From positions 806,001 through 870,000 of the forward strand of contig NW_020845867.1 in assembly GCF_003704095.1 (NCBI RefSeq): DNA of 64,000 bases, written 5' to 3'. A program made the position numbers. This DNA is from Pocillopora damicornis (lineage: Eukaryota). Positions 18,001 through 42,000 of the stretch are shown here, piece by piece (position 1 is the stretch's first letter; every line of letters starts with the position of its first letter).

Positions 18001-21000
18001 AAAAATTAAAAAAAACAAAGCTGGTCAAGAAGTGAACCAAGCGAAAAATGTTGCTCCCACCTTCTTTTATTCGTCAGAGAAAAAATGCAAGAATAATATA
18101 ATAATAAAATTTAAATTATAAGTCAACGTTAGTGTTTTTGGCAACTCTATTAACAGTTACTTTACATTTTGATCATCACTAGCAGTTAAAGCAAAAACGG
18201 TCGCATTCACTCGATTATGATTATCGTGATGACGTTTGGTAAGGTGGTCGAAACGTCAGTCTACCACCGACAACAGTCCCTGTCAAGACTACTCTCTCCT
18301 AGACGATCAGACCACACGAATCATTTCTAATTTGGTTATTATTAACGCAGGTCAGAGGAGAAAATGCTATAACTGTAGTTTTCAAAACTCAAAATCTTTG
18401 TTTGTATCTTTGTACACCAGTATGAAAGGTATACTATATCTAGTGTCGATACTTGGAAATTTAAGTACCATAATGATTTGATTTAGCACCCTTCTTACAA
18501 TAAGCGGCCCCCCTCTATACTGTTTTTATAAATAAGTGCACTTATTCGAATAAGCGCCCCTATCCTAATGAACGCCCCTACTCAGTTTCAGTAATAGCAC
18601 TTTTAGGGTACATTTACATTGAGATCAACCGAGGTTCATCTTTCCTTAATTGCTCACTTAAAGCCTCACGACAAGAGCAGTGGTCTTACAGTTTCTTGAA
18701 ATGAAAGATTCTGTCTCAAAATTTTGCGACGAGGGACAACAAGTCCGTTTTTCAGTCTTTCTGATCCTTTTCAAATAAATATCAAAGCTTTGTTTCCGTC
18801 ACATTCTGCTGTTTCTCAAAAAAGGAATAAGTGTCTTGTCCCTAATAGGCACCTTGATTCCAATAAGCACCCTCCCTGAGATACCGATTAAAAGCAATTA
18901 AACGCCCCGGGTACAAAATCAAATAATTACGGTACGCATTTTGTTGCGCTAACTAATCTGGACTATGTTCCAAATCGGGCTTGGAAATATGCAGTCTATG
19001 TACCTATATTCAATGTAAAAACGATCACAAGTGTGCCAGAAATCGATGGAGACTTGCAAGGAGCAGCTTAAGGTTTGGCCAATAAAACCCTCCTAGAAAG
19101 GACGTCTAAAATTGGAATATAAATATTGCCTTTCTGGCCGCCACTTCCCAATGGTCTACATGACTGCGTCTGCTTTTGACGCGCTCAGTTCAATAATACA
19201 GCCTTGAGGTTTCTCGAAAGTTTGAAAAATTGCAAAAAAGGTACACTATTTTGATGCTAGTATTATTATAAATTATGATTATAACTATGAACTTGCCGTG
19301 CAGATAATCATTTTGGACATTTTGGAAAAAGGCCTATTATCTATGAGCATTTTTGAGCACTGAAGATTGGGATCCAGCTCTTGCTCTGCTCATTTGTCGT
19401 CATCTATTTCCGAGTTGTTGACAGTCTTTGACTGCATTGTGGTCATCGGTGCCTCATCTATCTTCCTACAAGCTTTTTGACCAGAACTATTGTTTGTAGT
19501 TGTCGTGTAGAGCAGTAAGGACATTCCTAGCTCCAGACACCGCATTAATGTCATGAAAATGTACCAAGGCCACGGCGAAATGAATTGCGCATGGGATGAA
19601 GCGCCGCTGATGCTGACCGCAGCGTAAAGATGCATGACGGCGATACTAAAGCCGCCTACACTGGCTGTTACACAACGTTTGAAAATAGAAAATGTCTGCG
19701 TTCCTCTGTCTAGAGTTTTCGACGAACCTTCTCGCACAGTGTGAAGCTTTTTCCAAATAAGGAAGGAAATGTATGAGTAAAAGAAGGCCAGGCTGATATA
19801 TAGAAGTATGTTTATTACCTGGCAAGCCAGTATCAAGCCGCTGTAAGCTGGAATAAACGCGACAATCAACTCAGATGTGAACACGAAGATGTAGTAAGGA
19901 AGAGTAACCAAAGTTATGTTTCTTGTCGTATACCAGGTTTGAAATCTGTTTTTCATCACTAAAGCATTTCGCAACACTAAGAAAATCAGCATGAACGCTG
20001 TAATCAAACAAGGCTGTCCAATTCCCCAGAGTAGACTCGTCACTTTCGCTGAAACATGCTTCTTTGAATGGTAGGCGTCAATACACAGAAAGAGACATCT
20101 TGATGAACCGAAGATGAAGATTTGACTCAGCACAACGAACGACACTTTCTTTTGTCGAGCCCCCCTATCCATTTTAAATAATTTCACCAGCGCCACAAAC
20201 GCTAGTAAACTGATGACACCGAATAGAGCTCCGAGTCCATATTGATGAAATTCCCACGCGGCTCCCCAAGTCTCCACAGCAATATCCCATTCGGGCTGAG
20301 GTTCGGCCGTCGGTTCAGCTGTCGGCTCGGCCTCGGCCCCGGCCCCGGCCCCGGCCCATCCGCGGTATTCTCCTTCAGGAGTAGCTTCGGTCGTGGCCGT
20401 CCCTTTTACAGTTTCTGGTTTTGAAGTCATCTTGTTGCGAGTGGCGCTGAGTGGTAAATAAATTTTCTAACCTCTATCTGTCTATTGAATACGTTTGCGC
20501 AGTGGAAGCTGTTACAGTGGTGGGGAAGTATAGATTGGTTTGCGTCCAGGAAACGAACTCTAGAGTTCGGTCAGTCAGATGTTCAAGTCTAAAACTGTTT
20601 GAAACACCCTCAAAACTCTTGCCTTTGTTGTGAATACCGACCAAATAAGACAAATACAGCTTTCTCTCGAAGCTGTGAAAAACATGGTTCCCCTTCAGAT
20701 GCAGCTAATGATGTAAATAGCTTAATATGCGACAAAAAAGCGTTAACAACCAGCTGTCATAGCGATTGTTTTAGCTACACAAAAACAAGACTGTAAATTG
20801 CTCTCCTCCATAAAAACTTAAACAAAGCAACTATTGTTTAGTAAGAACAGACTCGATGAATTGAGAGCCTCACAAGAGGCTTACCCAGTTTAAAATCCAA
20901 TTGGAAAATGGACTCTTGTTTATTTCAAAACCTAATTACGTTTGCTCAATTATTTATGAATCAAAAGGTTAGNNNNNNNNNNNNNNNNNNNNNNNNNNNN

Positions 21001-39000: not shown

Positions 39001-42000
39001 GCATACCTTCTTTGGAAAAATTTCAGAGTGGAAAATTCTCAAGGAAGTGCGGAAAAAAGTCGACAACATTTTGCGCGGACCGTTTCGAAAAGTAGTCCGC
39101 GCGGCAGACAAACTCGATCCATTATCAAAACTTGCGTCGCAGCCGTTCTTGGAGGCGTTATACTTTGCGCGCTTCAAATTTATTCGATGAGTGGAGTTTA
39201 CGGGGTTTTCTCGGACGCCATTTATGTTGAGGCCTGGCCTTGGTTGATCTTCAATTTTTCCATGAGAGTTTTAGAGTTATTTCTCTCTTTCGTGTTATTC
39301 AGTGCCGCTTCCAAACAAGGAACACGGCGTCGACAGTGCCAATCATTTCCCGTAAGCTCGGCGGGTTCATTCCAAGGGCGTGCACGACAAAGAAATTGTG
39401 TGATTTCCCTCTCACCTAACGCGATTGGCAGTGCAGGTTTAAGTACGAAAGGCACTGCTATATTGTAAAATATTTTCAAAATGAGAAGCAGCTCACTGGA
39501 AGATTATTTCTTAGGGTCTCAATGGGGTTAACTGTCAGACTTAAAACGGCCTAAAAATTTAGCTGTTAGGCGTAAAAATGGAAACACTGTAACTGTTGGT
39601 CGTAAAAAGATTAGGTAAAAACATTTTTCTATTTATAATGAAAGTTGAATTCTGAAAGTGTCAAAATCTTAGCCTGTCATGTGTCTTGTCTTGTGGCTAA
39701 TGTTGTTATGACAGTTATACAATTTATTTTGGTATCGAAGACATTTGAAAATGAACATCTGAAAATTGATTGCCAACCTTTTAAAATGATCGAAATTCAT
39801 TTTGAAATTCCTGTTAATCGTAACAGAAAGATATCAAGAGTGAACACCATCACCCCATTGAGACCCTCAAGAAAATTAAGCATATTAACACAAATGAAAA
39901 CTGAGAAGCACATATTGTTTTCCATCCTGTCCAAATCACTCTTTACGCGAGCTGAATACTAACACCTGCCTCCTTATACTTAATTAATTTTCGGGAATAC
40001 TTTAACAGGGACATATACGAGATTTCATCAGGGAAAAAGATTTATTTAAACTCGGTGTATATTCGGTATCATGTGGTTACATTGGGAATCTTTTGGGTCT
40101 TTTTTTGTATCACTGTTTTCATTCTTAATATCGAAATCTACTTTTTGAAGTGTTTTTTTTCCTTATTTGTTTGGTTTAAGTATATTATTCTAGGCTTTAA
40201 CGAACTTTGATCGATCGTGACAATAAGCACAAAAATTTCCCTCTGCCAGTAATTGCTGGATTCAGATTGAAAATCGGAATCTTTTGCTATATTTTTAGGG
40301 CTACAACATATATTTCACAATACGTCACGACGGTAAAACTAACTCACATATTACTAGCCGTTATACAGTAAATATCAGTCATACATTTATTGCCAGTATT
40401 AAAATAAATGTATACTCGACTCTGTAATTCTACCACTTATTTCCCATTTCCACTACTCATGCTAGATGGAAGGTGATTAGATTAAAGCAGTGTGATAACT
40501 GTTATGTTTACATTTAGCGTTAAATGGTACTTGTTATTGAAAGACATCACTTATCCGGTCCCACTAAGATAATGATAAGTTGCGTCACGTTCACTGCACG
40601 GAACAATTATCAGAACACGTTTGACCAAAATAATTAGAGCAGATTTTCAAAATAACCTTTCTTATGGAAATTTTAATGAGGCGTTTTCGAAAATTGCGAC
40701 CGTGACAAAAAATTCGTCAATAAGAAACATTATCCTCAGAGCACTGTTTTAAGGTGCATGGTCCAATTGAACGCGAACGAAAATTACTAACCAAGAGCAA
40801 CTCATTTCATGAACGGAACGAACGTCTAGGATCGTTCATAGATTGCGCTTTCTGATTGGTCAGCGAATTGTATACTGACAGGCACACGCCACACCATGTT
40901 GCAAGAACACGCGAAAAGTTTGAAAATCACTCGCCTTCGGTTCGGTCTCTTACTTTAAGTCCTTTGCAGTCAAATCTGTGAATCATTCCTAAAGCAGCTT
41001 ACCAGCCAATCAGGTTCGAGTATTTTTCATTAGCAGAACTAGGGCTGATAGAGGCTGTCAATGGGGTGATTACTTTTACCGCTAACGGTTAAAATTTTTG
41101 CCATTTTACGGCTAACGGTTAATATCATTCCATTGTTGTTGTTTAAGGTTCTATTAGTTTTTTTACGACTAATGGTTAGAATTTGTCAATTTTTACGCCT
41201 ACTAATTTAATTTTTTTGCCGTTTAACAGCTATCGGTTACCCCAATTGAGACCCTCGTAATATTCCCCTTGAAAATAATTAGTTTCTGGAGTTTTTAAAT
41301 CAAAAGTCCCATAAATTTGTGTTTACACTGAGTCAGACGAGATGAATTTGTTTTAGAAAGTACCTGACGTAAATGTTTTTTTTGTTTTGTTGTTTTTCTG
41401 TCTAGTTTGTCTCGTTTTTTCGTAATAAGAAATTTGTCTGTTCTCTAATAATATGTAGATGATTCAATCAACTCTGGTCGCGCCCTTTCTCGAGACGCTT
41501 ACACGACAGAAAATATTTTCATTAAACGGCAATCCGCGGTTTCTCCAAAACTTATATGCGCTTGAGCAGCACGTGTTCCCTATAAACCAACATGGCGGCT
41601 GGAGGAGCAGAAGAGCATTTTGCTAAGAAACTAGCGAATAACGACAAGAAAATCAGAGATAAAGCCCTGAATAAACTTAGGGCTTGGATTAGGAGCCGAC
41701 CAAAGGATGGCCCTGGTAAGTTACTGACAACTTTCTTTAGCAGACGTAAACAGATGTACAAAAATGTTGCGCCACTTTTCAAGCATGGATGTGTTTTCAT
41801 GGATCGCTCAATGCTAAAGAGGACATTGTGGTAATGTCTCAGTATGCAGTATGTGTAGTGCGATGAAAGAACTTGGATTACCGTATTATTGAATCCAATG
41901 CATTATGTTATTTATCTAAGTACATTGATAGGAATAATTTATTTTTCCTTGAAGGGTTTGGTGAGGTAGATTTGCTTAAAATATGGAAGGGACTATTTTA

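What the first reader, a model, noticed from the sequence alone, without database searches (positions are those of the whole stretch)
19390..39468. Cluster of three intronless PRRT3/4-like 7TM receptor paralogs
Seen: three intact single-exon ORFs (346, ~339 and 363 aa) sharing EPxPEW, W..(H/Y)QYGLGA.F, R(C/S)L(F/Y)LC(I/M)DAY, G.PC.ITA, RF..WY..(R/K)NI and WPW..R..E. Two are in tandem on minus and one is divergent ~14.7 kb away, all among intron-rich housekeeping genes. No signal peptide is visible, and the long Pro-rich ectodomain of vertebrate PRRT3/4 is absent. Inference: a locally expanded family of orphan non-rhodopsin 7TM proteins, possibly a coral receptor repertoire (chemosensory, endolysosomal or symbiosome sensing) of retroposed origin. 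More copies may be hidden in the gaps at 20973 and 29086-32520.
[Added by the scan's program, not by the reader: the finding's places include an assembly gap (unread letters, written N; its length is only estimated) at 20973 to 21380, 29086 to 29185, 30382 to 30836, 31006 to 31105, 32421 to 32520. Whether the letters on both sides are continuous or in frame is not known: test that first.]
Basis: partly seen in the sequence, partly recalled or inferred. Interest (0 to 1): 0.65.

Follow-up and report, generated by a model that had tools for sequence, protein, structure and literature searches.

The report
Three old PRRT3/4-type 7TM genes
The window holds three intact single-exon genes for short members of the PRRT3/4 seven-helix membrane protein family, which fold like G-protein-coupled receptors but are old, conserved paralogues and not a recently expanded coral receptor repertoire.

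Summary
Three intact ORFs lie at 19390-20430(-), 22674-23693(-) and 38377-39468(+), of 346, 339 and 363 aa. They share all six quoted motifs and none touches an N gap. They belong to the PRRT3/4 family, Pfam PF25987. All 44 relatives found carry that precomputed domain, including 99%-identical copies of B and C, and NCBI names one coral orthologue 'PRRT4-like'. AlphaFold2 gives seven long helices for B and for A (pTM 0.79 and 0.81). Foldseek ranks class A GPCRs first, at TM-scores of about 0.45-0.55. No rhodopsin-family sequence match or DRY/NPxxY motif is present.

The 'local expansion' reading is not supported:
- Each copy sits in its own strongly supported clade of relatives.
- Synonymous sites between the copies are saturated.
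- No fourth copy is in the readable window.

Retroposed origin is neither supported nor excluded. A 2026 paper already calls human PRRT3/4 GPCR-like and arrestin-recruiting. These are ordinary members of a known but functionally dark family. Interest is low to moderate.

The parts
19390..20430 (-). Paralogue A: single-ORF PRRT3/4-family gene, 346 aa. It is the most derived of the three.
   Evidence: ORF. All 6 motifs present. The protein atlas places it next to clusters that are 100% PF25987, score 0.97. Its clade has 6 rows with SH-aLRT 100, end branch 0.43, and a best identity of 64% to P0050. The AF2 model has pLDDT 83.5 and pTM 0.81, with helices 57-86, 93-121, 128-157, 169-192, 197-235, 237-275 and 286-321.
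22674..23693 (-). Paralogue B: single-ORF PRRT3/4-family gene, 339 aa.
   Evidence: ORF. A 99%-identical protein, P0001, carries precomputed PF25987.1. Its clade has 20 rows with SH-aLRT 99 and includes Montipora capricornis 'PRRT4-like'. The AF2 model has pLDDT 80 and pTM 0.79, with helices 48-79, 86-112, 119-149, 160-183, 188-225, 235-267 and 281-307.
38377..39468 (+). Paralogue C: single-ORF PRRT3/4-family gene, 363 aa, head to head with B.
   Evidence: ORF. It is 99% identical to P0034 over 360 alignment columns, and P0034 carries PF25987.1. It is 79% identical over 360 aligned residues, without gaps, to the 363-aa Stylophora LOC111320709. Its clade has 16 rows with SH-aLRT 100. A HMMER search of 1.84 billion representatives found 469 relatives at E<=1e-3.
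23556..23594 (-). In B, residues 34-46: the conserved N-terminal cap (EPxPEW and a short helix) just before TM1. The equivalent stretches in A and C begin at residue 43 and residue 30.
   Evidence: E34, P35, P37, W39, A42 and W46 are conserved in at least 93% of 105 family members. This segment has the highest mean conservation, 0.63. AF2 predicts a helix at 39-46, with pLDDT 78-95.
22809..23390 (-). In B, residues 102-295: the span that holds the near-invariant charged residues R102 (TM2), R292 and E295 (TM7), together with D109, Y111, P131, C132, C194, Q195, Y264 and W282-P-W284.
   Evidence: Counts in the 105-row alignment are R102 104/105, R292 103/105, E295 102/105 and C194 105/105. Their place in the membrane is inferred from the AF2 helix limits.
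20973..21380 (.). Assembly gap between A and B. It lies in A's upstream region and B's downstream region, and was not filled.
   Evidence: It lies 542 bases from A's ATG and 1,293 bases from B's stop.

Best explanation
A, B and C are three old paralogues of the PRRT3/4 protein family (Pfam PF25987), in its minimal form. Each has a 29-42-residue acidic N-terminal stretch ahead of the EPxPEW motif, seven transmembrane helices and a short cytoplasmic tail of 32-51 residues. Each is encoded by one uninterrupted ORF.

Shown:
- family membership;
- seven predicted helices;
- a predicted fold closest to class A GPCRs;
- three separate clades of relatives;
- saturated synonymous divergence between the copies.

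Inferred:
- N-terminus outside and C-terminus inside, from the K/R-rich loops TM1-2, TM3-4 and TM5-6 and the acidic N-terminus.
- The working part is the outward-facing half of the bundle. It is closed by the conserved N-terminal EPxPEW helix and tied to a mid-membrane charged trio, R in TM2 with R and E in TM7. That trio sits roughly where class A receptors have their TM2-TM7 polar switch.
- The cytoplasmic face is variable and lacks DRY and NPxxY. Any signalling is therefore unlikely to go through canonical G-protein coupling. By analogy with human PRRT3/4 it may go through arrestin-type or other adaptors.

I read them as conserved GPCR-like membrane sensors with three long-separated roles, not as a fast-evolving chemoreceptor set. 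Confidence in identity and fold is about 0.95. Confidence in the mechanism is about 0.4.
For: Family:
- All 44 relatives of B carry precomputed PF25987.1. Names include 'proline-rich transmembrane protein 4-like [Montipora capricornis]'.
- The nearest atlas clusters to both B and A are 98-100% PF25987 'PRRT3'.
- The long relatives from Owenia and Mytilus carry PF25987.1. UniRef names the Owenia protein 'Proline-rich transmembrane protein 3/4 domain...'.

Fold:
- Seven hydrophobic stretches in each protein, with K/R-rich alternate loops.
- AF2 gives pTM 0.79 for B and 0.81 for A, each with seven long helices.
- Foldseek against the PDB with B: 0 hits at E<=1e-3. Of the 50 rows listed (E 2e-3 to 1e-2), 45 are class A GPCRs, 1 is SMO and 4 are microbial rhodopsins with lower TM-scores of 0.30-0.37.
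- Foldseek with A: 14 hits at E<=1e-3. Of 49 listed rows, 48 are named GPCRs and 1 is described only as 'a peptide receptor'. TMq is 0.38-0.55.
- A profile of 105 members against PDB sequences gives 21 hits at E<=10. Twenty are class A GPCRs, with the best-scoring stretches covering profile positions about 188-299, the region of TM5-TM6 and in some rows TM7; best E is 0.0017.

Conserved site: positions conserved in at least 75% of members lie in the N-cap, the outer ends of TM1, 2, 5, 6 and 7, ECL3, and R102/R292/E295. ICL3 and the C tail have mean conservation of 0.19.

Age:
- Three clades with SH-aLRT 99-100.
- pS 0.838-0.849 between copies.
- No similarity in the flanks.
- In one search, B-type and C-type relatives show the same longest-contig length in three cases: 850472, 1492177, and 1332358 for Stylophora. 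This suggests that B-C linkage is conserved.

Literature: human PRRT3/4 were found by structure mining to be GPCR-like. They recruited arrestins but no active-state G proteins (PMC13581589; passages and section 5 read).
Against: - No functional datum exists for any cnidarian member. Four literature searches found none.
- The Foldseek E-values are modest, and TM-scores near 0.5 show shared topology, not shared function.
- The profile hits to GPCR sequences are borderline.
- The C tails show no enrichment of arrestin phosphorylation-code motifs: A 0, B 2 (26% of shuffles reach 2), C 0. The paper reports six such codes for human PRRT3/4, so the arrestin analogy may not carry over.
- The held Pfam copy has no PF25987 model, so the window proteins themselves could not be scored against it. 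One search gave no family.
- Residue depths in the membrane come from helix limits only, because I had no coordinates.
- Expression is unchecked.
- dN/dS could not be computed. The paralogue pairs are saturated and no orthologue DNA was available.
Confidence: 0.6

Rival explanations
1. The three genes are part of a locally expanding orphan receptor repertoire of corals, for chemosensation or symbiont sensing, that grows by recent duplication or retroposition.
For: There are three copies within 20 kb, two of them in tandem. The fold is GPCR-like. The coding regions are intronless, as in many chemoreceptor and retrogene families.
Against: - Only three copies, and no fragment of a fourth in the readable 64 kb.
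- Each copy is in its own clade with SH-aLRT 99-100.
- B is 63-85% identical to P0002-P0018 over at least 96% of its length, and one of these is the Montipora protein, from the other scleractinian suborder to Stylophora.
- pS is saturated.
- The flanks are unrelated.
- The outward-facing positions are the most conserved part of the protein, not the most variable as expected for a diversifying ligand-binding repertoire.
Confidence: 0.06
2. They are intracellular seven-helix regulators of endosomes, lysosomes or the Golgi, in the manner of GPR137 or TM184C. They would not be cell-surface receptors for outside ligands.
For: The atlas lists GPR137, THH1/TOM1 and TPRA1 clusters at feature scores of 0.89-0.91, after the PRRT clusters. 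One of 105 family members hits Pfam THH1_TOM1-3_dom at E 2.1e-4. The paper that describes PRRT as GPCR-like found its sister 'superdark' protein TM184C on late endosomes and lysosomes (PMC13581589, section 5). The three genes show a conserved, housekeeping-like pattern of evolution.
Against: Atlas scores of 0.89-0.91 are leads only, by the tool's own calibration. The window proteins give no Pfam hit to those families at E<=1. The parts of the paper that I read state no localisation for PRRT3/4. No sorting motif was tested here.
Confidence: 0.22
3. They are not receptors at all. They would be seven-helix carriers, ion-translocating proteins or membrane-embedded enzymes that use the buried R/R/E trio.
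For: Three near-invariant charged residues lie inside the bundle. The cytoplasmic face is unconserved, without G-protein motifs. No arrestin-code enrichment was found. Four microbial rhodopsins appear among the Foldseek rows for B.
Against: The microbial rhodopsins score clearly lower, TM 0.30-0.37 against 0.41-0.55 for GPCRs, and none is listed for A. No transporter or enzyme family is matched by the window proteins. Human relatives recruited arrestins (PMC13581589).
Confidence: 0.1
4. They are non-functional retrocopies, or chance ORFs.
For: The ORFs are intronless. No expression data were available here.
Against: - Three intact ORFs of 339-363 codons lie in DNA of about 36% G+C, while the coding G+C is 44-46%.
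- All near-invariant family residues are kept.
- Full-length relatives at 99%, 85% and 79% identity show substitutions concentrated in ICL3 and the tail.
- There is no poly(A) remnant.
Confidence: 0.02

Closest known systems
Vertebrate PRRT3 and PRRT4 (Pfam PF25987 'PRRT3'; 'PRRT' GPCR-like family of PMC13581589)
   Same: Same Pfam family, judged from the precomputed domains on relatives and from the atlas clusters. They share the seven-helix core and the GPCR-like predicted fold.
   Different: The coral proteins are the bare core, with 29-42 residues before EPxPEW and tails of 32-51 residues. Many family members carry 200 to more than 1,000 residues ahead of the domain: 38 of the 131 motif-bearing proteins in the list. 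The paper describes human PRRT3/4 as having expanded disordered regions and six arrestin codes. The coral tails show no such enrichment. I obtained no direct alignment to a named vertebrate PRRT3/4. The word-based 'longer' searches returned none and then only Owenia and Mytilus.
Class A (rhodopsin-like) GPCRs, Pfam PF00001
   Same: The helix topology is the same and these are the best structural matches, with TMq up to 0.55 and TMt up to 0.64. A family profile gives borderline sequence hits to them alone apart from one channelrhodopsin. The inferred orientation is N-out, C-in.
   Different: No 7tm_1 match for the window proteins or for any of 105 relatives. There is no DRY: R/K at the equivalent position in only 51 of 105 members. 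There is no NPxxY in TM7. The conserved residues are a different set. Human relatives showed no G-protein coupling (PMC13581589).
GPR137 / THH1-TOM1 / TPRA1 (Pfam PF27607, PF06454, PF10160)
   Same: These are dark seven-helix proteins of similar size. They come next after the PRRT clusters in the language-model feature search, at 0.89-0.91.
   Different: The window proteins show no significant sequence match to them. Only 1 of 105 relatives hits THH1_TOM1-3_dom, at E 2.1e-4. The relationship is a lead and not shown.
PRRT1 / PRRT2 (CD225/dispanin family)
   Same: Only the name 'proline-rich transmembrane protein'.
   Different: This is an unrelated family. The Hydra symbiosis gene found in the literature search is PRRT1, with IPR007593 CD225/Dispanin (PMC6019070, passages). 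It says nothing about these genes.

Membership tests
PRRT3/4 family (Pfam PF25987) | Match to the PF25987 model | tested here: met
   Met by proxy only. The held Pfam copy gave no hit, and none of 105 relatives hit such a model, so the model is evidently not in that copy. Precomputed PF25987.1 is listed for all 44 relatives. These include P0001, 99% identical to B, and P0034, 99% identical to C, and also A-clade members P0022, P0024 and P0025. Atlas clusters nearest to B and A are 98-100% PF25987.
PRRT3/4 family (Pfam PF25987) | Seven transmembrane helices with the family's conserved residues (EPxPEW cap, R in TM2, DAY, PC in TM3, CQ in TM5, WPW and R..E in TM7) | tested here: met
   AF2 gives seven long helices for B and for A. 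All near-invariant columns of the 105-row alignment are kept in A, B and C.
PRRT3/4 family (Pfam PF25987) | Long proline-rich N-terminal region and long disordered tail, as in the vertebrate proteins that give the family its name | tested here: not met
   There are 29-42 residues before the motif and tails of 32-51 residues. This is not a feature of the whole family. In the list, 61 of 131 motif-bearing proteins also have 60 residues or fewer before the motif.
PRRT3/4 family (Pfam PF25987) | Arrestin recruitment and arrestin phosphorylation codes in the tail (reported for human PRRT3/4) | tested here: not met
   Only the motif was tested. Counts are 0, 2 and 0 in the tails of A, B and C, not above shuffles. 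Recruitment itself cannot be tested with these tools.
Class A rhodopsin-like GPCR (PF00001) | Sequence match to 7tm_1 | tested here: not met
   No hit at E<=1 for A, B or C. 0 of 105 relatives hit at E<=0.01.
Class A rhodopsin-like GPCR (PF00001) | E/DRY at the inner end of TM3 and NPxxY in TM7 (motifs recalled from general knowledge) | tested here: not met
   Column counts show R/K at B position 145 in 51 of 105 members, with no preceding D/E. No NPxxY occurs in columns 296-311.
Class A rhodopsin-like GPCR (PF00001) | Seven-helix bundle superposable on solved receptors | tested here: met
   For B, 45 of the 50 Foldseek rows listed are class A GPCRs. For A, 14 hits have E<=1e-3 and 48 of 49 listed rows are named GPCRs. 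TM-scores are about 0.45-0.55, so the similarity is at fold level only.
Class A rhodopsin-like GPCR (PF00001) | Coupling to heterotrimeric G proteins | not testable with these tools
   The paper reports none for human PRRT family proteins in three assays (PMC13581589, passages).
Lineage-specific chemoreceptor-type expansion | Many recent, species-specific paralogues with variable ligand-facing positions | tested here: not met
   There are three copies only, in three old clades, with saturated pS. The outward-facing positions are the most conserved.
Retrogene | Intronless coding region | tested here: met
   Each coding region is a single ORF that is colinear over its full length with relatives. 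Introns in untranslated regions cannot be excluded.
Retrogene | Poly(A) remnant, target-site duplications, and an intron-bearing parent gene | tested here: inconclusive
   No A-run of 10 or more lies within 1.5 kb downstream of any copy. Such marks would in any case have decayed. Target-site duplications were not looked for. No eukaryotic genome collection was available to look for a parent gene or to compare exon structures.

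The most novel reading that the evidence does not exclude
The short cnidarian proteins may show the ancestral, stripped-down core of the PRRT family. 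This would be a GPCR-like bundle whose own conserved N-terminal EPxPEW helix plugs the outward pocket as a built-in or tethered ligand. It would also have a mid-membrane Arg/Arg/Glu trio in place of the class A sodium-site switch, and it would signal without G proteins. Corals would then keep three such sensors, at least two of them in a conserved linkage group. That would make them a simple system for de-orphanising a family that is still dark in humans.
Probability: 0.15. Interest if true: 0.55.

Novelty: new member of a known kind. Interest (0 to 1): 0.25.

Why it matters
PRRT3/4 are among the least understood human seven-helix proteins. They were proposed to be GPCR-like only in 2026. The coral genes add little that is new in kind, because the family, its Pfam model and 'PRRT4-like' names for coral genes already exist. 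They do show three things:
- The bare seven-helix core exists on its own and is under long-term conservation.
- Conservation sits in the outward half of the bundle and in a buried charged trio, not on the cytoplasmic face.
- Corals keep three old paralogues.

This gives concrete residues to mutate and a short, tail-less form to express. For the genome scan, the lesson is that a tight cluster of intronless paralogues need not be a recent expansion.

Tried and rejected
- Held Pfam-A scan of A, B and C: one sub-threshold DUF6703 hit at E 0.081, nothing else. The PF25987 model is not in that copy.
- Word-based search for longer relatives with B alone: none. With the 105-row alignment: only Owenia and Mytilus. 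No named vertebrate PRRT3/4 was reached.
- The listing of cluster members for names of ten relatives: not answered, because the database is switched off.
- Pairwise dN/dS between paralogues: pS 0.838-0.849, above the Jukes-Cantor limit, so dS is undefined and the ratio meaningless.
- Arrestin-code count in the tails: no enrichment.
- blastn of the three gene regions against each other: only 44-152-base matches inside the coding regions, none in the flanks.
- A 16-residue tblastn match next to the gap, at 21416-21463 with E 6.1, is not significant. I did not pursue it, and the gaps were not filled.
- Pfam scan of 152 ORF pieces of the window (38, 114). Between B and C only one piece matched, below the curated cut-offs: a coiled-coil-type hit at 31188-31358.
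- The Hydra symbiosis paper that surfaced for 'proline-rich transmembrane protein' concerns PRRT1, of the CD225 family, and is irrelevant.
- Not used or not possible. The paper's Extended Data figures on PRRT distribution and localisation are not held either; only their legends are.
- The neighbouring multi-exon genes were scanned piece by piece.
- Nothing in the window looked human.

Full report
OBSERVATION

With the standard code and ATG starts, one search lists three ORFs. I call them A, B and C.
- A: 19390..20430(-), 346 aa.
- B: 22674..23693(-), 339 aa.
- C: 38377..39468(+), 363 aa.

The other 'ORFs' in that list are runs of X across assembly gaps. Identity to A is 45% for B and 37% for C. 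tblastn of each protein against the window finds the other two at E 1e-75 to 8e-90, and nothing else below E 0.3. Each ATG is preceded by an in-frame stop 12, 15 or 5 codons upstream.

The gaps lie at 7520-7619, 20973-21380, 29086-29185, 30382-30836, 31006-31105 and 32421-32520. None touches an ORF, so the question of frame continuity does not arise for the three genes. What does depend on scaffolding is the A-B adjacency, with one gap 542 bases upstream of A's ATG. The B-C spacing also depends on it: 14,683 bases between the start codons, spanning four gaps. I did not fill or look up any gap.

WHAT THEY ARE

The held Pfam-A copy gives no family for A, B or C. It also gives no PRRT-type model for any of 105 relatives, so it evidently lacks the relevant model.

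The large protein collection settles the identity:
- All 44 relatives of B carry the precomputed domain PF25987.1. The set includes P0001, 99% identical to B, and P0034, which the tree call shows to be 99% identical to C.
- The four that are named are 'proline-rich transmembrane protein 4-like [Montipora capricornis]', two uncharacterised loci of Nematostella and Stylophora, and a Stylophora fragment.
- The protein atlas names PF25987 'PRRT3'. It places both B (0.98) and A (0.97) next to cnidarian clusters that are 98-100% PF25987, followed by an arthropod cluster of 555 members.
- A full HMMER pass with C over 1.84 billion representatives finds 469 relatives at E<=1e-3 and 251 at E<=1e-10.
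- A profile search among long proteins returned an Owenia protein of 1,594 aa, which UniRef names 'Proline-rich transmembrane protein 3/4 domain...'. It also returned a Mytilus protein of 953 aa. Both carry PF25987.1.

I did not obtain an alignment to a named vertebrate PRRT3 or PRRT4. That link rests on the Pfam family and the database names.

ARCHITECTURE

The window proteins have 29-42 residues before the EPxPEW motif and 32-51 residues after TM7.

In the list returned there are 150 proteins, 131 of them with the motif. The length before the motif is distributed as follows:

| Residues before the motif | Proteins |
|---|---|
| 60 or fewer | 61 |
| 61-200 | 32 |
| 201-500 | 21 |
| More than 500 | 17 |

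The bare core is therefore a common form of the family, and the long ectodomain is an addition found in some lineages. Eight of 105 relatives hit the Glu-Pro repeat model Trypan_PARP ahead of the domain. A has a short AEPT repeat at the same place.

FOLD AND TOPOLOGY

Hydropathy gives seven hydrophobic stretches in each protein. The loops TM1-2, TM3-4 and TM5-6 are K/R-rich and the N-termini are acidic. By the positive-inside rule (general knowledge), this puts the N-terminus outside and the C-terminus inside. A short acidic N-terminus without a signal peptide is usual for class A receptors (recalled).

AlphaFold2 results, each with a 105-row alignment:

| Protein | Mean pLDDT | pTM | Long helices | Extra helices |
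|---|---|---|---|---|
| B | 80.0 | 0.79 | 48-79, 86-112, 119-149, 160-183, 188-225, 235-267, 281-307 | 39-46 (N-terminal cap) |
| A | 83.5 | 0.81 | 57-86, 93-121, 128-157, 169-192, 197-235, 237-275, 286-321 | 48-55 (equivalent of B's cap helix), 161-166 |

The 105 rows are the three window proteins plus 102 of the 191 fetched proteins, namely those of 290-520 aa.

Comparison with solved structures:
- Foldseek against the PDB with B gave no hit at E<=1e-3. Of the 50 rows listed (E 2e-3 to 1e-2), 45 are class A GPCRs with TMq 0.38-0.55. One is Smoothened. Four are microbial rhodopsins with lower TMq of 0.30-0.37.
- Foldseek with A gave 14 hits at E<=1e-3. Of 49 rows listed, 48 are named GPCRs and 1 is described only as 'a peptide receptor complex'. 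FPR2, LPA1, the succinate receptor and S1P receptors come first. Assigning these to class A is my own knowledge.
- A sequence profile of the 105 rows against PDB chains gives only borderline hits, best E 0.0017. Twenty of the 21 are class A GPCRs. Their best-scoring stretches cover profile positions about 188-299, the region of TM5-TM6 and in some rows TM7.

By sequence, the proteins are not rhodopsin-family members. There is no 7tm_1 hit for the window proteins or for any of the 105 rows. R/K occurs at the DRY-equivalent position in only 51 of 105 rows, and TM7 has no NPxxY.

WHERE THE CONSERVATION LIES

Positions conserved in at least 75% of the 105 rows, in B numbering:
- N-cap: E34, P35, P37, W39, A42, W46.
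- Outer end of TM1: W50, H53, Y55, G56.
- TM2: R102, L106, D109, Y111.
- TM3: L125, P131, C132, L139.
- TM4: F171.
- TM5: C194 (invariant), Q195, L205.
- TM6: Y264.
- ECL3: V269, S274.
- TM7: W282, P283, W284, R292, E295.
- One further position, P27, lies in the N-terminal tail ahead of the cap.

Counts for the buried charges are R102 104/105, R292 103/105 and E295 102/105.

Mean conservation is 0.63 for the cap, 0.39-0.51 for the helices and 0.51 for ECL3. It is 0.28 for ICL1 and 0.19 for both ICL3 and the tail.

From the helix limits, R102, R292 and E295 lie near mid-membrane on the neighbouring helices TM2 and TM7. This is an inference, because no coordinates were available to me.

AGE AND EXPANSION

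The tree has 51 rows: the three window proteins and 48 of the 55 proteins P0001-P0055. Seven were left out: five fragments under 290 aa and two proteins over 420 aa.

Each window copy falls in its own clade:

| Copy | Rows in clade | SH-aLRT |
|---|---|---|
| C | 16 | 100 |
| A | 6 | 100 |
| B | 20 | 99 |

The Nematostella protein lies outside the three clades, at weakly supported forks.

- The B clade contains the Montipora protein. Montipora is in suborder Refertina.
- The window's nearest named relative is Stylophora, suborder Vacatina. C is 79% identical to Stylophora LOC111320709, 286 of 360 residues with no gaps, and both are 363 aa.
- That the window itself is a pocilloporid coral is my inference from these identities.
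- In one search, B-type and C-type relatives show the same longest-contig length three times: 850472, 1492177 and, for Stylophora, 1332358. This suggests conserved B-C linkage. No such sign exists for A.
- Between the window copies, synonymous differences are saturated (pS 0.838-0.849) and dN is 0.50-0.60.
- blastn finds similarity only inside the coding regions.

This is an old three-gene family and not a local burst. A is the most derived copy, with an end branch of 0.43 and a changed ECL3, but it keeps every near-invariant residue.

INTRONLESS STATE AND RETROPOSITION

The coding regions are single ORFs that are colinear with full-length relatives. No A-run of 10 or more lies within 1.5 kb downstream of any copy. 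At this age that says little. No eukaryotic genome collection was available, so exon structures in other animals could not be compared. The origin stays open.

SURROUNDINGS

I scanned single ORF pieces only, never joined into a spliced model. They identify:
- Rap_GAP at 6350-6658(+).
- SRP receptor alpha in at least four pieces at 10098-17106(+).
- Nop52 at 41586-41831(+).
- Prefoldin_2 at 51541-51747(-).
- A CDK-inhibitor domain at 61665-62027(+).

Between B and C, no piece reaches a Pfam cut-off.

LITERATURE

PMC13581589 (Nature 2026; I read the passages on PRRT and section 5) reports the following:
- PRRT3/4 came out of AlphaFold-model mining as a 'superdark' GPCR-like family confined to eukaryotes.
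- They carry six arrestin codes.
- They did not recruit active-state G proteins.
- They recruited arrestins.

The parts I read state no PRRT localisation.

Searches for PRRT3/PRRT4, the full protein names, PF25987, and the name together with 'coral' found no paper on cnidarian members. The one cnidarian hit is PRRT1, an unrelated CD225 protein (PMC6019070, passages).

The coral tails show no enrichment of arrestin-code motifs: 0, 2 and 0 in A, B and C, and 26% of shuffles reach B's count of 2.

VERDICT

The fold is GPCR-like. The expansion and repertoire reading is not supported, and retroposition is undecided.

The most likely working model is a conserved GPCR-like sensor. Its functional site is the capped outward pocket together with the buried Arg/Arg/Glu trio, and it signals without canonical G-protein motifs. 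The identity is firm and the mechanism is inference.

Expression, localisation, orthologue dN/dS and per-species copy numbers stayed unchecked.

Noticed in passing
window 55498-56751 (-): A 418-residue stop-to-stop ORF rich in Pro, Ser, Glu and Lys. It looks disordered and has no Pfam match. It may be a large exon of an unidentified gene.
   Followed up: no
window 10098-17106 (+): SRP receptor alpha gene, seen as separate ORF pieces: SRP-alpha_N at 10098-10577 and SRP54 GTPase pieces at 15497-15802, 16264-16617 and 16807-17106. The pieces were scanned singly and not joined.
   Followed up: partly
window 3867-6658 (+), 41586-41831 (+), 47184-47957 (+), 51541-51747 (-), 61665-62027 (+): Further neighbours, identified from single pieces: a Rap-GAP domain; a Nop52 N-terminal piece followed about 5 kb on by a Lys/Glu-rich 258-residue ORF; a prefoldin subunit piece; a CDK-inhibitor (CDI) domain.
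   Followed up: partly
alignment A2 (105 PRRT-family proteins) against PDB sequences: A family profile gives only borderline hits, best E 0.0017. Twenty of the 21 are class A GPCRs, with the best-scoring stretches over profile positions about 188-299 (TM5-TM6, in some rows TM7). This hints at faint residual sequence similarity in a family described as undetectable by sequence.
   Followed up: partly
listing (relatives P0012/P0027, P0019/P0032, P0038/P0043): B-type and C-type relatives share the same longest-contig length in three cases. This suggests that B-C linkage is conserved in other corals. Contig identity itself could not be checked.
   Followed up: partly
window 31188-31358 (-): A 57-residue ORF piece between two gaps has sub-threshold coiled-coil-type Pfam hits (Lzipper-MIP1, OVT1, Takusan; E about 1e-5, all below their cut-offs). 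This is probably a compositional effect.
   Followed up: no
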